From NCBI GenBank assembly GCA_031835245.2, contig JAVKOQ020000002.1, forward strand, positions 248,001 to 312,000: a stretch of 64,000 bases of DNA. Direction: 5' to 3'. Every line of letters starts with the position of its first letter. Positions within the stretch are counted from its first letter, which is position 1. The position numbers and the translations under genes are program-made. The notes under the pieces are model-generated. The model saw only the letters and a list, made by a program, of their open reading frames with translations, was not told where the DNA came from and searched no databases. The DNA comes from Balamuthia mandrillaris. Lineage: Eukaryota. Shown here piece by piece: positions 9,832 through 32,417 of this stretch.

Positions 9832-10894
9832 GAAGTGCAAGAGGCAATACATTAGCGGGTTTGATATCTCTATGAACAATGTGTAGCGTCTTGTGAAGGT
9901 ATTGCAAACCTTGCAGTATCTAGGTGTGAGAAAGCGAGAGGTAAAGTTATAGAATAGAAAATGATACGGAGAGAATCTGAGAAAGAGACAGAAGAGAGAG
10001 AGAGAGAAGAAAGAGAAAGAGAAATAGAGCAAGGGATTACTTGAAGCGTGATAGCAGTCAACACGTTTTCAGGGATAGTTACGCCAGAGGCTATAAGGTC
10101 AGCGAGCGAGCCGCAGTCCATGTACTCCAGAAAGATGCGAACAACGCCCTCCTCATATGACGCACCGTAGAAGCCCACGATCGAGTGATGGGCAGAACTG
10201 TGATGCGTTCTCAACTCTAAGAAGAGTTTCTTCTTCAACTCTGTTTTTCTTTTTCCATCAGAAAGAAGGAAAGAACGAAAGGAAACGTGAAGGAGAAGGG
10301 GACAAACCTTCGCTCACATCAACAGCGATCACTTTCACAGCCACGAAACGCTCGGAAGGCCGGTGCCGCATCTTCTTGACGGTGCCGCTAGAACCGGAGC
10401 CAAGCGTTACGCCCAAGTCTTCCATGTCACTCATTCTCATCGTCGTTCGATTGGGTTCTCCCTGTCCTTCTTCCTCTTCTTCATTCTCTTCTTCTTCTTC
10501 ACTTTCTTTGTTGGAGTGCGAAGAAGATCGACTGCGGCTGCTTTTTCTGCTTCTTCGTCTTCTTTGATGGATCTCTTCCGCGTCTTCTTCTATTTTTAAT
10601 CCTTCTCGACCTATGCGAAGCCCGTCTTCCACCAAAACACCTCCTCTACTAAAGTTTCTATTTGTTTTGTTTTAAAAAAAAGTTAGAATCAAAAAGAAGC
10701 TGGAGGAGGAGGATGCTGACAAACTTTTCTTCTTCGCCGTTTGGTGGTGGAGAAGCTGGAGTGTCGACACGTTGAATGAGAAGCGGCGTGGCGTTAGAGG
10801 TCTTGGCTTTGAACTTGTCCATGAACAACGGCCGCTTTCGTCGGTCTCCCGCTCCTCCTCCTCCTTTTCCATTGTTGTTGTTGGCCAGGCTCAT
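8942..10894 (-). CDS. MAP kinase kinase (STE7/MEK family; multi-exon)
   Basis: LGSGSSGTVKK, VAVKVI, IVGFYGA..IFLEYMDCGSL, HRDIKPAN, KIADFGVTGKLKKTLGLALTFAGTATYMDPERI, DIWSLG, FSADFCDFI..RATASDLLQHPF. Confidence 0.92.
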
Positions 10895-11134: not shown

Positions 11135-12301
11135 TTATTCCACAGGACATCCGTTCTCTACGGCCCATTGCAACAGCTCCAAGTTATCACTTTCTGCTGC
11201 TTCAATGCAGGTGTCTTTATCCCAAGGGCAGCCGTTCTCTCTGGCCCACTTCAGCACCTCCAAATGACCTCCTATCGCTGCTCCAACACACGTTTCGGCA
11301 TCCCAAGGGCATCCCTTCTCTCTGGCCCACTTCAGCACATCCAAATGACCTCCTATCGCTGCTCTAACACACGTTCCGACATCCCAAGGGCATCCGTTCT
11401 CTCTGGCCCACTTCAGCACTTCCAAATGCCCTTCCTCTGCTGCATCTCCACACGTTTCGGCATCCCAAGGGCATCCGTTCTCTCTGGCCCATTTAAGTAC
11501 GTCCAAATGGCCTCCCGCTGCCGCCAAGGCGCATGTGTTTGCATCCCAAGGGCATCCGTTCGCTCTGGCCCACTTCAGCACCTCCAAATGACCTCCTCTT
11601 GCTGCTTCAATACACGTTCTTGCTCCCCAAGGGCTGCCGTTCTCTCTGGCCCACTTCAGCACATCCAAATGACCTCCTATCGCTGCTCCAACACACGTTC
11701 CGACATCCCAAGGGCAGCCGTTCTCTCTGGCCCACTTCAGCACATCCAAATGACCTCCTATTGCTGCATCTCCACACGTTTCGGCATCCCAAGGGCAGCC
11801 GTTCTCTCTGGCCCATTTTAGTACTTCCAAACGTCCACCCATGGAAGCCATGGCACAGGTGTCCTCATTCCAAGGGCAGCCTTGCTCTCTGGCCCATTTC
11901 AGCACTTCCAAGTGGCCTCCTTTGGCTGCGCTGGTGCAGACTTGCTCACCCCAAGGGCAGCCTTGCTCTCGCACCCATTTCAACACCTCTAAAGCCCCGT
12001 TGCTTGCTGCCGCTTCATAAACGGCCTCGGCGGCCTCGGGCAAAGAGAGTCCGTTGCACAAGGACCAGCGAAGCAACGGCACGGTGCGGCTGGCGGATCG
12101 AACGGAAAGGCGGTGGCGGAGGGGAGGGGGACAGCAGGCGAACCATCGCGTGCACGTCCGCGCAGCCACCGACACCATGTCCTCAGGCAGCTGCTCAAAC
12201 ACGTGACAAACCAGTTCCTCTGGCAACAGCTCTTCCACCCAACACTTGTCTCGAAGGGCGTCTTCTCCAGCGGCGGGCAGCCGTTCCTCCTTCCTCTGCA
12301 T
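11135..12301 (-). CDS. Intronless F-box-like + ankyrin-like repeat protein (giant-virus/amoeba type), about 388 aa
   Basis: Likely ATG at 12301 (MQRKEERLP..). LLPEELVCHVF..AARTCTRW is followed by about 11 near-identical 25-aa repeats CPWDAETCxxAAxGGHLEVLKWARENG. Paralogue of 5899-7056. Confidence 0.9.
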   Translation of the reverse strand: MQRKEERLPAAGEDALRDKCWVEELLPEELVCHVFEQLPEDMVSVAARTCTRWFACCPPPLRHRLSVRSASRTVPLLRWSLCNGLSLPEAAEAVYEAAASNGALEVLKWVREQGCPWGEQVCTSAAKGGHLEVLKWAREQGCPWNEDTCAMASMGGRLEVLKWARENGCPWDAETCGDAAIGGHLDVLKWARENGCPWDVGTCVGAAIGGHLDVLKWARENGSPWGARTCIEAARGGHLEVLKWARANGCPWDANTCALAAAGGHLDVLKWARENGCPWDAETCGDAAEEGHLEVLKWARENGCPWDVGTCVRAAIGGHLDVLKWAREKGCPWDAETCVGAAIGGHLEVLKWARENGCPWDKDTCIEAAESDNLELLQWAVENGCPVE

Positions 12302-12461
12302 GACCTCTTCCTTCGTTTCCACGCGCGTGCAGCGAGTCCTATTAATATAGAGTCCTCCCCACGACGTCACGACAATAGGGTGTCCGTTAAGCCAACAAGA
12401 AAAAGAAAAGAGAAGCGAGCGTTGTTCTGTCCATCCGCGGAGCGCGAAGCCAAAGGAGAGG

Positions 12462-13720
12462 ATGCACAAAGCGACCATGATCCACGGGGAAGAAAATAAC
12501 AACGGCCAGCATCGCAGCAGCAACAGCGCCTCGCCGGCTCACCTTCAAGGCGTTTCCCTGCTGGACAGGAGGGAGCTTCGGCTGAGGGAGTGGCACCAGT
12601 GCGTGAGCAACACGCTCCACTGGGACCGCATGCACAGGGAGCTGGCCTACCAGGTGGACGGGCGAAGGAGGAAGATCCTCTCCCGCTTCTCCTACCTCCG
12701 CTTGGAGGGCTGCCAGCAGATGCAGGACCTGATGAAGCTCATCATCACCGCTCCTCCCGAGGACTCTCTCCTCTCCATCTTCTTGGAGCTCCAAAACGAC
12801 AAGGACCGCAATGGTACTCTCCTTTCTTACTTCTTAGTTCTGCTTTCTCCGTTCGCTCTTCTCTCCTCTCTATTCTCTCTTTTCTCTGCGCTCATCTCGT
12901 TCTCTCGTCTCTTCGCGCTTCTCTCTTCTGGTTTACGCACGAATAGTGACTGCGATATTTTTGGAGTCCGTCCTGTCGCCAACGTTCATGGCAGAAGTCA
13001 GCTCGTTAAGTCCGGTGAGTTCCAGAGAGAAGCAAACCGCGCTGGAGACCATGCAAGGTCTTCTCGTGCTTCACCAGCCCAGCAAAGAATATTTTGCTCA
13101 ACTGGATGGCGTTTCGGTACTTTGGCCTGCTTCTCGTCTCTCGTCTCTCTTCTTTCTCCTCTTCTTTCTAAACCATTGAAATTACACCAGAGCTGTTTAA
13201 AGCTGTTGCAATCGGAACAAAGGTCGTTCTTGGGAGTACCTTGCTTGCAGGTGTTGCTCTCCGCGATGATCGGCAGTGATGCCACCAACCGGCTGTGCTT
13301 CGAGGAAGAAGATGGTTATCTTCACCTCCTCGCCATTCTTAAACAACGAAAAGCTAGTAAGCGTACCAGGTTGGATCCTTTCTTTCTTTCTTCTTGCTTC
13401 CTTCATCTGTCTTCACACTGCTTACTCCTTGTATCTTGTGTCTTGCTTCTCCGATGTTCTTTGTTTTCTCCTCCAAAACAAAATCTAAAACAAAACTGAA
13501 ACTAAAACAACATAGGTACCATTGTGCAGAGTTCATGAGCCATGCAGGACAATACTTTGGAGCGAACGAAAAGCTAACAAAGCTGATGGGGGAGAGGCTT
13601 TGGAGCTTGATTGCGCGGCATACCTTCACTCAATCACCATCCAAGCAATGCATATTTGCTTTGGTGGAAGCAATTGATGAAGTGCTTCTGGCTTCGGCAC
13701 CTGTAGACAGCGGAATATGA
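12462..13720 (+). CDS. Septation-initiation-network Cdc14-like protein (S. pombe cdc14 family, not the phosphatase)
   Basis: Spliced reading contains LELQND, ALETMQGLLVLHQPSKEYF, CLQVLLSAMIG..NRLCFEEEDG and CAEF, resembling the fungal CDC14/SIN family pattern (LQGxLLLHxPSr.F ... NxRxFEExDG ... EF). Confidence 0.6.
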
Positions 13721-27125: not shown

Positions 27126-27601
27126 AAATCAGACTCTTCACAGCCATACAATACCAAAGAAATACTTGGTCACCTTCTCTCGCTTCATCCTTTGCTCTCG
27201 TTGTAAGTTTCGGTGTTCATAGTGGACCAAGACTATTTTCATGAGGACATGAAGGTATCCGATTGGTGCATTGGTGTGTGGTTCTTTTTCCATAGTCTCT
27301 CTTCCATTGTTGCGGAGGGAGAGAGGAGAAACGCTTGGGTGGCAGCAGAGACAACACGCAGAAATACTGGCAAGCGCCTTGAGAGGAGATAAGATAGTTG
27401 CAACTGAAACAGCGCTTGTTGAGCAATCAGTGCGAGCACAACGAGGAAGTGATGTGTGTGGTGGCAAAGATGCTTTCGGTTGTCTACAAGAAAGATATAT
27501 TTGATTTTTGGTTGGTGGTTTGAAAATTTTCATTCGAAGATCATATCTTTCGCAAAGCTTTTTTGTCGACGTGAAAAGGAACAAAAAGGAAAACAAAAAA
27601 A

Positions 27602-27816
27602 ATGCAATGCTCCACAGAAGACGCCACGAACAGGCTTGCTGCTGCTGCTACTCCTTCGGTAGCAGAGGAAGAGGCGGAGGAGGCAGAGAACAATGTTGAC
27701 GAGCAGGGGGAAGACACCGCCACGGCGGGGGTGCCTTTCTTACACTCTGGCCGAGACGTTGTCTATTGTCCGAGTACGTAGCAGGCATTTCAAATTTTTT
27801 CCCTCAGACAGAGATT

Positions 27817-27853
<37 letters not shown>

Positions 27854-29552
27854 CATCTACAGTTTTCTCTCGACAAAAACAAACAAAAAGTGTGTGGACT
27901 TCCTCCAGAGTATTGTGAATACAACACGAAGAGTGTGTTCAATCGGTGCAAACCATGGCTGCTTCGTAACTATCCTGACCTTTACCCTCAACTCAAAAGT
28001 ACGTTTTCTTCCCTCTCCTCTTTTCCTCATAATTTTTTCATGATTTGTTGGCCCATCTCTCTGCTCGTTTCTTATTCCTGCTCTCTCTCTCTCTCTCTTT
28101 TGGGTTTGTTGATAACAATGCATTTTGCTAAACAGAGGAAGCAGAGAAGAAGCGACGAAGGAGGCCAAAGGGCACATTCTATCGTTGGCCTGAGATTGGT
28201 CTCTTCTACAACGTTCGAGCTCGAATCACTGAACCCAACCAACCAGAACCACACGAAGAAAAAGCAAAAGAAGCGACTGGAGAAAAAGGAGAAGAAGACG
28301 CAAACAAGGACAAGCAAAAAGAGCCAAAGCTGCAGCTTCCTTCCTCCATCACTTATCGCGCCAAGATTAAGCTTCACGGCACCAACGGTGCCATCAGCAT
28401 TCAACACAACGGCAACGATATCTTTGTGCAGAGTCGTAACAAGTTCTTGACGAAAGAGAAGGACCACCATGGTTTTGCAGAGTGGGCGCTGCACAAGGAC
28501 CGCAAAGCATACTTCAAGTCACTCTACAAGCAGAATGCTGGATACAAATCTGTCACCGTCTTTGGAGAGTGGTGTGGCAAAGGTTTCTTTCTTTCTTCTT
28601 TTGCTTTCTTCTTGCATCATCATGATTTTAACTTTTTTTTCTTGCTTCCTTTTCTCTTGGAAACAAAATAAAAGGAATAATGAGAGGAGCAGCCATCTGC
28701 AACGTGGACCAGCGAATGTACGCTGTATTCGCGCTGCTCTTGGACAAGTCCAAGCTCATTGTCGCTCCTGACCAAATCCTCTCCTTCCTCCAACAAGAAG
28801 GCGCTCTGCCCATGCCTCAAGACCTCATTGTCCTACCGTGGTTTCCTTCATTGTCTCCTTCTTACGCTTCAAAAGAGGATGAAGAAGCGGAACTGATACA
28901 AGTACAAATGGACTTTGCTTCTTCGGAAGGACAGTTGATCAAAGAGGTGGATCGAATGAACGTTCTAGTGGAGAACGTGGACAAAGAGGATCCGTGGGTT
29001 AAGTCTCGGTTCGGCGTCAGCGGCAGCGGCGAAGGTCTCGTCTGGTATCCTGTTTCTTTCCCTTTGGCTTCTGAAGAAGTTAAAGAAGAAGCAGAACAGC
29101 GAGTTGAACTCTCTCCAGACCTCTTTCAAGCCTTGAGCTTCAAGACCAAAGGACCAACACACAGCGTCATCGCTGGCAAGAAGAGTGTGCAGCTCTCTCC
29201 CGAGCTGGTGGAGAGCGCAGAGCAGTTTTTAGACCTCTTCTTCACAGAAGCTCGTTTGCGTCAAGGCTGGGAGGAAGTCATCATTTCTTCTTCTCCTTCA
29301 CCTTCACTACAACAAGAAGTAAACAACAACACTGGAAGCAAGACGCATTTGATAGGAGAATTTGTGGAGTGGATTTGCAATGATGTGAGAAAGGAGAGCA
29401 AGCAAGAGTTGGAGCAGAACGGGTTGACTTGGGAGCAAGTCAGCGGTATGGCCAACATACGCGCTCGCAAGTGGTTCTTGGCCGAGATCAACAGGCACGG
29501 CGGCGTTGTTGTTCATCTTCCTTCTGCGTCCCCTTCTCCTTCTTCTACATAG
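27602..29552 (+). CDS. DENR N-terminal zinc-binding domain fused to an Rnl2-like ATP-dependent RNA ligase (4 exons: 27602-27773, 27891-27998, 28136-28582, 28675-29552; about 534 aa)
   Basis: Three phase-1 GT-AG introns give one open frame of 1605 nt. N-terminus VVYCPMCGLPPEYCEY..CKPWLLRNYPDLYP is the DENR/Tma22 Zn motif. It is followed by nucleotidyltransferase motifs I KLHGTN, Ia QSRN, III VFGEWCG, IIIa YAVFAL, IV GEGLVW and V FKTKG, plus a C-terminal domain (TEARLRQG..FVEWICNDVRKE). Confidence 0.85.
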
Positions 29553-29757: not shown

Positions 29758-30254
29758 TTATTCGGGATTGTTGTTGGGGAAGTCAGGGGACCGTATGTTT
29801 TCTGTGGGTGGGATGATGTCGAGGAGAAAGTCCAGCACGTCCACCTCTTCCACACATTTTGCTGTTGAGGTGCAATGCTGAGTTTTTGCGACAGTAGAGA
29901 GAGAAGAGAGTAGAGAGGTACCCAAGTCTCGGTACTGAAGTGTCTTTTTGCCTTCTTCTTGAGTGTAGGTGTAGGCTTGTTTGGTGAGATAGTCAAGAAA
30001 CAGCTCCTGCATCAACAAAGCGTGAGTATTCCACACAAAAAGAAGTGATCTCGATGAGGAGACAGTCGTACAGTCGATTTAGAAATCATGTGGACAGCGT
30101 CAGTGCTGATTAGCTTCACGTCCGGGTCGGACTTTACAATCTTTTTGATACGGGTGATGGGGAACACGGCCTGCATCCGCGTGGCTTGTTCTTTGCCCTC
30201 CTCGTGCTCCTCTTGATCCCCCTCTTCTCCTGTCCGTTCCTCTTTGGCGTCCAT
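29758..30254 (-). CDS. POLE4: Histone-fold protein, DNA polymerase epsilon subunit 4 / Dpb3-like (3 exons)
   Basis: FPITRIKKIVKSDPDVKLIS.DAV..ISKST|ELFLDYLTKQAY..KKTLQYRDL|AKCVEEVDVLDFLLDIIP. The related CHRAC1/NF-YC family is not fully excluded. Confidence 0.75.
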
Positions 30255-30320
30255 TCTAGGTCTTGTAACTTTTTTCTTTTGTTGGGTGGTGTGCAACTTC
30301 TTTTTGGTTTGGGTTTTTTT

Positions 30321-30331
30321 TTTGGCGGGAA
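30321..30331. promoter_or_regulatory. E2F-like site TTTGGCGGGAA about 67 bp upstream of POLE4
   Basis: Consensus match in the POLE4/RPT4 divergent promoter. E2F sites are typical of DNA replication genes. Confidence 0.4.
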
Positions 30332-30583
30332 TATTTTCGTCGACGTTTTTATTTTTGTGCCGACAGATGACATTTGCAGACATGGTGATGTCACGCAAGC
30401 CATAACTGTCGACTTCAGGTTTTTTTGCCGACCGGCATGTGTGAGGATAGGGATGCGGCAGTGCCAGCGAGGTTTCTCGTGGCGGAAAGAAAAACTTTAG
30501 AGGGACAAAAAAAAGTAGTGAAAAAGAGAGATTGGGTTGTTGCAAAAGGGGGTGAGAATCTAGCACAACACAAACATAACGCC

Positions 30584-32417
<1,834 letters not shown>

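What the first reader, a model, noticed from the sequence alone, without database searches (positions are those of the whole stretch)
27602..29552. DENR zinc finger fused to an Rnl2-like RNA ligase: candidate ribosome-docked RNA repair enzyme
Seen in sequence: exons 27602-27773, 27891-27998, 28136-28582 and 28675-29552 join through three phase-1 GT-AG introns into one uninterrupted 534-aa frame. Residues 54-93 read VYCPMCGLPPEYCEYNTKSVFNRCKPWLLRNYPDLYPQLK (Cys56/59/66/77). The rest carries a complete ordered set of covalent nucleotidyltransferase motifs: KLHGTN (Lys172), QSRN, FGEWCG, YAVFAL, GEGLVW and FKTKG. No SUI1 domain is visible. Established knowledge: this CxxC-x6-C-xn-C-xxWL motif is the N-terminal zinc-binding segment of DENR/Tma22, which binds MCTS1/Tma20. 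The DENR-MCTS1 pair sits on the 40S subunit near the P-site tRNA during recycling and reinitiation, and DENR normally ends in a SUI1 domain. KxHGxN-type ligases belong to the T4 Rnl2/RNA-editing ligase group and seal 3'-OH/5'-phosphate RNA breaks. Inference: the SUI1 domain has been swapped for a ligase, so MCTS1 could deliver the ligase to 40S-bound tRNA or rRNA to repair nicks, for example from ribotoxins of ingested bacteria or from viral infection. I do not know of this architecture being described, but I could not search.
Basis: partly seen in the sequence, partly recalled or inferred. Interest (0 to 1): 0.92.

Follow-up and report, generated by a model that had tools for sequence, protein, structure and literature searches.

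The report
Amoeba RNA ligase with DENR hook
A spliced, expressed gene of the amoeba Balamuthia, shared with five other distant and likely eukaryotic lineages, joins the partner-binding zinc finger of the ribosome-recycling factor DENR to an RNA ligase, which would likely let the ligase borrow DENR's tRNA-binding partner MCTS1 to find and reseal broken tRNA, an arrangement I did not find described.

Summary
Confirmed. Four exons give a 534-aa protein identical to NCBI KAL6080043.1 (Balamuthia mandrillaris, named only 'Tma22'). One intron-free contig joins the DENR exons to the ligase exon. Pfam finds DENR_N and RNA_ligase above cut-off and no SUI1. The fusion occurs in six lineages at 27-47% identity, on one branch (SH-aLRT 96). 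DENR_N is its best-conserved part (55% against 44% for the ligase core). It keeps all four cysteines and, here, the three residues human DENR uses to bind MCTS1. Prokaryotic relatives often carry a tRNA-binding domain at the same position, and 29 of 71 bacterial loci lie in or beside same-strand tRNA arrays. Best reading: an MCTS1-recruited tRNA repair ligase (about 0.45). Ribosome docking is possible but unshown. Not tested: activity, MCTS1 binding, and whether a normal DENR persists. Three T4 active-site positions differ family-wide, and no end-healing domain is present. Four literature searches found no description, but the main RNA-repair survey (Burroughs and Aravind 2016) could not be read. 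The scan had not noted this on other DNA.

The parts
27602..27773 (+). Exon 1: ATG, acidic disordered N-terminus (pLDDT under 50 for residues 1-48) and the start of DENR_N with Tyr55 and Cys56
   Evidence: X1 contig coverage begins at 27583
27774..27890 (+). Intron 1, 117 nt, GT..AG, phase 1, splits the CxxC of the zinc site
   Evidence: spliced in X1, X6, X7
27758..27988 (+). DENR_N zinc segment, residues 53-90 (Cys56, 59, 66, 77; Glu64, Tyr65, Tyr68 = human Glu42, Tyr43, Tyr46), predicted MCTS1-binding hook
   Evidence: PF21023 53 bits; PDB 6ms4_B E=6e-5 from exon 2 alone; PMC6013234
27891..27998 (+). Exon 2: rest of DENR_N
   Evidence: PF21023 48 bits on this exon alone
27999..28135 (+). 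Intron 2, 137 nt, GT..AG, phase 1; the junction that joins DENR_N to the ligase
   Evidence: skipped in X1 contig 3 with 103 nt on the shorter side
28136..28582 (+). Exon 3: short Lys/Arg-rich linker, then ligase motifs I (Lys172, codon 28369-28371), Ia (Arg194) and III (Glu238)
28168..29171 (+). Nucleotidyltransferase domain, residues about 105-408
   Evidence: VIA-align Z 16.1, rmsd 3.0-3.1, about 200 aligned residues to T4 Rnl2 1s68/2hvq; Z 15.8 to REL1 1xdn
28583..28674 (+). Intron 3, 92 nt, GT..AG, phase 1
   Evidence: spliced in X1 and X6; two unnamed relatives (P0092, P0196) leave the protein alignment at the same codon
28675..29552 (+). Exon 4: motifs IIIa (Phe261), IV (Glu362), V (Lys399, Lys401), C-domain and stop
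29205..29495 (+). Rnl2-type helical C-domain, residues about 420-516, with Arg436 and Asp479 matching T4 Arg266 and Asp292
   Evidence: family profile aligns to 2hvq through this region, E=8e-17; both residues in 112 of 112 aligned ligases

Best explanation
The gene encodes one spliced protein in which a DENR zinc segment precedes an Rnl2-family ligase; the segment likely binds the cell's MCTS1, MCTS1 would hold a tRNA by its acceptor end, and the ligase is predicted to reseal 3'-OH/5'-phosphate breaks in that tRNA using ATP. Shown: gene structure, splicing, both domains, conservation of the fusion and of the binding and catalytic residues. Inferred: zinc and MCTS1 binding (about 0.8), ligase activity through adenylylation of Lys172 (about 0.85), tRNA as main substrate (about 0.6). 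DENR_N plus MCTS1 would do the job that a fused tRNA-binding domain does in many bacterial relatives. The tether is short (about 15 residues against 47 between DENR_N and SUI1 in a canonical DENR), so the ligase would sit close to MCTS1, and Rnl2 enzymes favour nicks in duplex RNA; breaks in tRNA stems near the acceptor end are therefore my first guess. Repair could happen on free tRNA or on tRNA left on a recycling 40S subunit. Ends with cyclic phosphate and 5'-OH would need healing enzymes encoded elsewhere.
For: One spliced molecule. Six lineages at 27-47% pairwise identity have DENR_N plus RNA_ligase above Pfam cut-offs; they fall in one 17-row clade, SH-aLRT 96. Mean pairwise identity among the six: DENR_N 55%, ligase core 44%, C-domain 37%, acidic N-terminus 21%; four Cys, Tyr55, Glu64, Trp80, Leu81 in 6 of 6. 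Human residues 24-51 are the minimal MCTS1-binding piece, Glu42/Tyr43/Tyr46 are needed, the complex binds tRNA without ribosomes with little selectivity, and MCTS1 Phe104 is predicted to stack on the acceptor end (PMC6013234). T4 Rnl2 K35, H37, R55, E99, F119, E204, K225, K227, R266, D292 map to K172, H174, R194, E238, F261, E362, K399, K401, R436, D479, kept in 97-112 of 112 aligned ligases. 42 of 73 hits to the ligase core carry tRNA_bind PF01588. Of 71 bacterial loci, 30 hold 3 or more tRNA genes; in 29 all are on the ligase strand and in 23 they flank it on both sides. One such array is induced under translational stress and some of its tRNAs are cleaved (PMC8421152, passages). Tether lengths.
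Against: No activity or binding was measured. The tRNA evidence comes from relatives at about 30-38% identity on another branch, and the array loci are mostly related cyanobacteria found with one cyanobacterial query, so they are not independent; 41 of 71 loci have no tRNA gene, and I ran no background count. Human tRNA binding was shown for full-length DENR with MCTS1; neither protein bound alone, and whether the N-terminal piece suffices I did not see tested. T4 positions E34, D120 and K209 are Ile/Val, Ala/Ser and Tyr here; I recall these as important in T4 Rnl2 (recalled, no call). The NCBIfam Rnl2 model scores only 14.9 of 197 bits. No kinase or phosphatase domain is fused, and ATP-grasp ligases need 5'-phosphate/3'-OH ends (PMC7824862 passage). 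One lineage (P0329) has Leu at the Tyr46 position. Presence of MCTS1 in this organism is assumed, not checked.
Confidence: 0.45

Rival explanations
1. MCTS1 docks the ligase on the 40S subunit, where it repairs 18S rRNA, mRNA or P-site tRNA in place during recycling.
For: MCT-1 binds 18S helix h24 on its own (PMC7114459 passage). The ligase takes the place in the chain that SUI1, which binds near the P site, has in DENR. A basic linker is present in all six fusions.
Against: The SUI1 contact with h44 is gone. A roughly 45-kDa ligase on a 15-residue tether must fit at the subunit interface (inference). The family's comparative signal is tRNA, not rRNA.
Confidence: 0.22
2. The zinc segment has been repurposed: it no longer binds MCTS1 but binds RNA or another partner, and the enzyme is a general nick-sealing ligase, possibly nuclear.
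For: The fused segments share a two-residue insertion absent from 17 of 17 aligned canonical DENRs. The linker KKRRRR resembles a nuclear import signal (sequence; inference). A Balamuthia paralog (KAL6051413.1) lacks DENR_N.
Against: The residues kept are those known to face MCTS1 and zinc; the insertion lies just after the minimal binding core.
Confidence: 0.13
3. The protein is a regulator of recycling and reinitiation: it competes with, or has replaced, canonical DENR for MCTS1, and ligation is secondary.
For: DENR and MCTS1 depend on each other for stability (PMC6013234 discussion). I could not show that a canonical DENR exists in this genome.
Against: Catalytic residues are invariant in 6 of 6 fusions. 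The fusion was not found in any named model eukaryote among listed hits, which fits an accessory role better than a core one.
Confidence: 0.1
4. The active site does something other than nick sealing, such as 5'-adenylylation, circularisation or single-strand joining of RNA held by MCTS1.
For: Three T4 positions differ throughout this subfamily; I found no solved member (closest PDB matches 13-19% identical).
Against: The C-domain, which T4 Rnl2 needs for AMP transfer to RNA (PMC3149579 passage), and its Arg-Asp pair are kept, as are all step-1 to step-3 residues named in that paper.
Confidence: 0.1

Closest known systems
DENR / Tma22 (PF21023 + PF01253; PDB 6ms4, 5vyc)
   Same: N-terminal four-Cys zinc segment with Tyr33, Glu42, Tyr43, Tyr46 equivalents; acidic disordered N-terminus.
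   Different: No SUI1 domain; an RNA ligase follows after about 15 residues; two-residue insertion in the zinc segment. The NCBI name 'Tma22' describes only 38 of 534 residues.
T4 RNA ligase 2 and kinetoplastid REL1 (Rnl2 family; PDB 2hvq, 1s68, 1xdn)
   Same: Nucleotidyltransferase fold (Z about 16), KxHGxN motif I, motifs Ia-V, helical C-domain with the Arg266/Asp292 pair. REL ligases also reach RNA through a partner protein (KREPA1/2; PMC4599027 passage).
   Different: 13-19% identity; KxKLHG instead of EKIHG, no motif IIIa Asp, no motif IV Lys; partner predicted to be recruited by an N-terminal DENR segment, not by the C-domain.
Bacterial tRNA_bind (PF01588)-Rnl2 fusions and phage 'RNA ligase 2' of the same subfamily (e.g. 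roseobacter phage DSS3_VP1)
   Same: Same ligase subfamily (30-39% identity, same deviant motifs; Foldseek E=3e-27); an N-terminal module linked to tRNA binding.
   Different: Their module binds tRNA itself; the eukaryotic one would borrow MCTS1. I found no functional study of either.
PrfH-RtcB and MJ1316-fused systems (translation factor coupled to RNA repair; PMC6514570 passages)
   Same: Logic of tying a translation-factor module to an RNA ligase or end-recognition domain.
   Different: Different ligase class (RtcB), release-factor rather than recycling-factor module, bacterial or organellar.
Naegleria NgrRnl (Rnl5; PDB 5cot)
   Same: Protist nick-sealing ligase with an N-terminal appended domain.
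   Different: Rnl5 has an OB-type N-domain and no C-domain; this protein has DENR_N and a C-domain; profile match only E=0.01.

Membership tests
DENR/Tma22 | N-terminal DENR_N zinc segment with four Cys | tested here: met
   PF21023 53 bits, cut-off 25.3; 4 Cys in 6 of 6 fusions
DENR/Tma22 | MCTS1-contact residues Glu42, Tyr43, Tyr46 (and Tyr33) | tested here: met
   Glu64, Tyr65, Tyr68, Tyr55 by alignment to 5vyc/6ms4 and PMC6013234
DENR/Tma22 | C-terminal SUI1 (eIF1-like) domain | tested here: not met
   No PF01253 in 6 of 6 fusion lineages; 2 of 2 canonical controls score 80-85 bits
DENR/Tma22 | Physical heterodimer with MCTS1; 40S binding | not testable with these tools
Rnl2 RNA ligase family | Nucleotidyltransferase fold with motifs I, Ia, III, IIIa, IV, V | tested here: met
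   PF09414 48.3 bits; top structural matches 2hvq, 1s68, 1xdn; residue map
Rnl2 RNA ligase family | Rnl2-type helical C-domain with Arg266/Asp292 | tested here: met
   Profile alignment to 2hvq runs through it; Arg436 and Asp479 in 112 of 112; two bacterial relatives hit T4_Rnl2_C PF18043. The query itself does not hit PF18043.
Rnl2 RNA ligase family | T4-type residues Glu34, Asp120, Lys209 | tested here: not met
   Ile171, Ala262, Tyr367; same changes in all 9 aligned members. Their importance in T4 is recalled.
Rnl2 equivalog TIGR02307 | Score above the curated cut-off (197 bits) | tested here: not met
   14.9 bits: a divergent subfamily, not the T4 equivalog
Rnl2 RNA ligase family | ATP-dependent self-adenylylation and 3'-OH/5'-phosphate nick sealing | not testable with these tools
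   needs biochemistry
Rnl5 (DraRnl/NgrRnl) | OB-type N-domain and no C-terminal appendage | tested here: not met
   DENR_N at the N-terminus and a C-domain present; definition from PMC4408790

The most novel reading that the evidence does not exclude
A group of protists has built a dedicated cytosolic tRNA-repair ligase by grafting DENR's MCTS1 hook onto a ligase of a subfamily otherwise common in phages and bacteria, making MCTS1 an exchangeable adaptor: with DENR it recycles 40S subunits, with this protein it presents broken tRNA for repair, possibly while the tRNA still sits on a post-termination 40S subunit. This would be the first partner of MCTS1 of the DENR type other than DENR, and a direct link between ribosome recycling and RNA repair in eukaryotes.
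Probability: 0.4. Interest if true: 0.9.

Novelty: new variant of a known kind. Interest (0 to 1): 0.74.

Why it matters
It would show that the DENR zinc segment is a portable MCTS1-docking module, and it gives a concrete, testable enzyme for how bacteria-eating eukaryotes might repair damaged tRNA. It also points to a large, apparently unstudied Rnl2 subfamily (494 cluster representatives at E<=1e-30) with altered active-site motifs and tRNA-linked contexts, of possible use as RNA-ligation tools. In Balamuthia, a human pathogen, the gene is hidden under the name Tma22; an enzyme with no listed animal relative in these searches is worth checking for essentiality.

Tried and rejected
Gene-model artefact: rejected (spliced contig, identical NCBI model, full-length transcript-derived relatives). 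One-off or decaying fusion: rejected (six lineages; DENR_N best conserved). Widespread fusion: not supported; 0 of 80 metagenome loci picked by DENR_N motifs matched the ligase by tblastn (best 80 of 117, many short), and no named model eukaryote appeared among 73 and 120 listed hits. A DENR_N-region search among long proteins returned only the Balamuthia cluster and missed the known P0006, so it is uninformative. Viral contigs: no relative with DENR-derived patterns. Atlas: no cluster with both domains, no usable feature hit once SUI1 clusters were left out; it holds only clusters of 50 or more. No RNA holder was listed on record; raw RNA runs of the same species label were laid instead. A second read-laying meant to look for a canonical DENR paralog and more junction-2 reads gave no result, so both stay open. 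Supplements of two Balamuthia papers (one file each, 7,685 and 18,197 characters) had no hit for DENR, MCTS1 or RNA ligase; they are too small to be gene lists. No complex was folded: no MCTS1 sequence was available, and DENR-MCTS1 is a solved pair that would tend to pass by likeness. Neighbouring genes show no repair cluster: 141 window ORFs of 105 aa or more gave no kinase-phosphatase, RtcB or 2H hit (short exons not scanned). Two genomes with array-embedded ligases also have RtcB elsewhere, so the ligase is not simply a substitute for it. Earlier scan findings: none on this fusion.

Full report
Observation. The introns are AT-rich relative to the exons, and the locus has the GC content of its surroundings. 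The product is identical to NCBI KAL6080043.1, 'Translation machinery-associated protein 22 [Balamuthia mandrillaris]'; a second record, KAL6068671.1, is 98% identical and differs in the acidic N-terminus. Laying four public runs showed a 255-nt contig of X1 that crosses both the first and the second junction, so the DENR exons and the first ligase exon are in one spliced molecule. Raw RNA reads of X6 and X7 (3-5% of each run read) support junction 1 (2 reads each) and junction 3 (1 read in X6); junction 2 rests on the X1 contig alone. A contig of X4 covers 27861-29515 with introns retained.

Domains. Pfam gives DENR_N at 53-90 (53 bits, cut-off 25.3) and RNA_ligase at 169-352 (48.3 bits, cut-off 27) and no SUI1; 2 of 2 canonical DENR controls give SUI1. 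Exon 2 alone matches human DENR in PDB 6ms4 (E=6e-5) and maps Glu64, Tyr65, Tyr68 onto human Glu42, Tyr43, Tyr46. An AlphaFold2 model from a 129-row alignment has mean pLDDT 83.7 and pTM 0.79, with residues 1-48 disordered. Its best structural matches are T4 Rnl2 and trypanosome REL1 (Foldseek E=2e-9; VIA-align Z 16.1 and 15.8 over residues about 105-408). A family profile matches full-length T4 Rnl2 at E=8e-17 and runs through the C-domain. Counting along that alignment, T4 K35, H37, R55, E99, F119, E204, K225, K227, R266 and D292 correspond to K172, H174, R194, E238, F261, E362, K399, K401, R436 and D479, kept in 110, 97, 109, 112, 111, 112, 112, 112, 112 and 112 of 112 aligned ligases. T4 E34, D120 and K209 are not kept in any of 9 aligned members, and the NCBIfam Rnl2 model scores 14.9 of 197 bits. 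So this is a divergent Rnl2 subfamily with a probably working but rewired site; that those three T4 residues matter is recalled, not from a call.

The fusion is a family. Three word-indexed searches, one exhaustive profile search and three cluster look-ups gave six lineages with DENR_N plus ligase: Balamuthia, P0006/P0079 (Logan, JGI), P0087 and P0247 (EukProt), P0237 (15-member cluster; JGI, Logan, ENA) and P0329 (JGI). A local DENR_N profile run over all 330 proteins then held hit only these six clusters and the window's own exon; each passes both Pfam cut-offs. Pairwise BLAST identity is 27-47%. In a 54-row IQ-TREE of the ligase part (quick search, LG+G4; rows chosen from a 213-row FastTree) the six lie in a 17-row clade with SH-aLRT 96. 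The other 11 rows start inside the ligase or at the basic linker; P0217 starts the same way, and its longer cluster mate P0329 has DENR_N. One origin is therefore likely, not proven. The fused zinc segments share a two-residue insertion absent from 17 canonical DENRs. Among the six, mean identity is 55% in DENR_N, 44% in the ligase core, 37% in the C-domain and 21% in the N-terminus: the hook is under stronger constraint than the enzyme. Only Balamuthia is named; two more are eukaryotic by source, three by inference. No named model eukaryote appears among the listed hits, and 0 of 80 DENR-motif metagenome loci carry the ligase, so the family looks patchy. A Balamuthia paralog without DENR_N (KAL6051413.1) falls outside the clade.

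What relatives suggest. The subfamily is large (3279 representatives at E<=0.001, 494 at 1e-30; best 150 seen) and common in phages (163 records) and bacteria. Its N-terminal slot is often filled by a tRNA-binding domain (PF01588 in 42 of 73 hits), once by the MJ1316 cyclic-phosphate recognition domain, and two eukaryote-type members are fused to BRCT and PARP. Of 71 GTDB loci found with one cyanobacterial query, 30 hold three or more tRNA genes within 4 kb; in 29 all lie on the ligase strand, in 23 on both sides of it, and 24 have ten or more. Recurrent neighbours include NADAR, Macro, PARG and an exonuclease. Such arrays are induced under translational stress in Anabaena, where some array tRNAs are cleaved and rtcB is co-regulated (PMC8421152, passages). 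Limits: these loci are mostly related cyanobacteria, 41 of 71 have no tRNA gene, I ran no background control, and they sit on a different branch from the fusions.

Mechanism. Human DENR residues 24-51 suffice to bind MCTS1; the co-expressed complex binds tRNAs without ribosomes and with little selectivity, and MCTS1 Phe104 is predicted to stack on the acceptor end (PMC6013234: abstract, passages, Results part 1 of 2, Discussion). MCT-1 binds 18S h24 on its own and the DENR C-domain binds h44 (PMC7114459, passages). The fusion keeps the first function's residues and loses the SUI1 contact. I infer that it recruits MCTS1 as a tRNA adaptor, as the bacterial relatives use a fused tRNA-binding domain, and seals 3'-OH/5'-phosphate breaks. 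The tether is about 15 residues (Pfam end 90 to structural start 105) against 47 in a canonical DENR, and Rnl2 enzymes favour duplex nicks (PMC4408790, passages), so stem breaks near the acceptor end are my first guess. No healing domain is fused or found among 141 window ORFs, and such ligases need healed ends (PMC7824862, passages). I put this at 0.45, 40S-docked repair at 0.22, a repurposed segment at 0.13, an MCTS1 competitor or DENR replacement at 0.10 and another chemistry at 0.10. Whether Balamuthia keeps canonical DENR and MCTS1 is open (no genome).

Novelty. Searches for DENR with RNA ligase (29 papers, 20 listings seen), Tma22/DENR/fused/ligase/Amoebozoa (3 listings), Rnl2/tRNA repair/amoeb/fusion (2 listings) and DENR_N terms (11 listings) showed no description. 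DENR does not occur in PMC6514570 or PMC9503650 (term search). Burroughs and Aravind 2016, the survey most likely to list such an architecture, was not available; I saw nothing of it or its supplement, and most subscription papers are not searched. Both parts are known, and ligases with targeting appendages are a known kind, so I file it as a new variant. It is not a member of the DENR family (no SUI1) and is an Rnl2-family protein outside the T4 equivalog. Interest 0.74.

Noticed in passing
L090-L094, L096-L113, L115, L117, L122, L142, L147, L151: Bacterial tRNA_bind-Rnl2 ligase genes lie inside or beside long same-strand tRNA arrays, with NADAR, Macro, PARG and exonuclease neighbours; the passages I read on these arrays discuss RtcB, not this ligase. 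A candidate tRNA-repair system in its own right.
   Followed up: partly
P0053, P0154 (NCBI KAH3762714.1, Pelomyxa schiedti): Same ligase subfamily fused to BRCT, PARP regulatory and PARP catalytic domains: a possible RNA-damage-linked ADP-ribosyltransferase.
   Followed up: no
P0065; P0172: MJ1316 domain fused to this ligase subfamily; a tRNA_bind-ligase interrupted by a LAGLIDADG intein.
   Followed up: no
P0171 (NCBI KAL6051413.1); loose ends in run X1 at window 28354 and 28578: Balamuthia has at least one paralogous ligase without DENR_N; loose contig ends suggest a further related transcript.
   Followed up: partly
window:25534-27122 (+) and 30015-30617 (-): Immediate neighbours are an aldehyde dehydrogenase upstream and a histone-fold (CBF/NF-Y type) gene downstream; no functional link evident.
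   Followed up: no
window:37842-39466 (+): Frizzled/Smoothened-like receptor with an Fz cysteine-rich domain in an amoeba (Pfam hits).
   Followed up: no
window:5884-7053 (+) and 11138-12538 (-): Two GC-rich ankyrin-repeat ORFs in opposite orientation, the second next to a kinase fragment at 9873-10313.
   Followed up: no
L019, L022, L027, L028, L033, L035, L046, L076, L077: A set of canonical DENR proteins carries an extra conserved segment of about 50 residues between DENR_N and SUI1.
   Followed up: no
L121:2519-3167: Six near-identical ARAGORN 'Ser' calls on the strand opposite the ligase; probably a repeat, not tRNAs.
   Followed up: no
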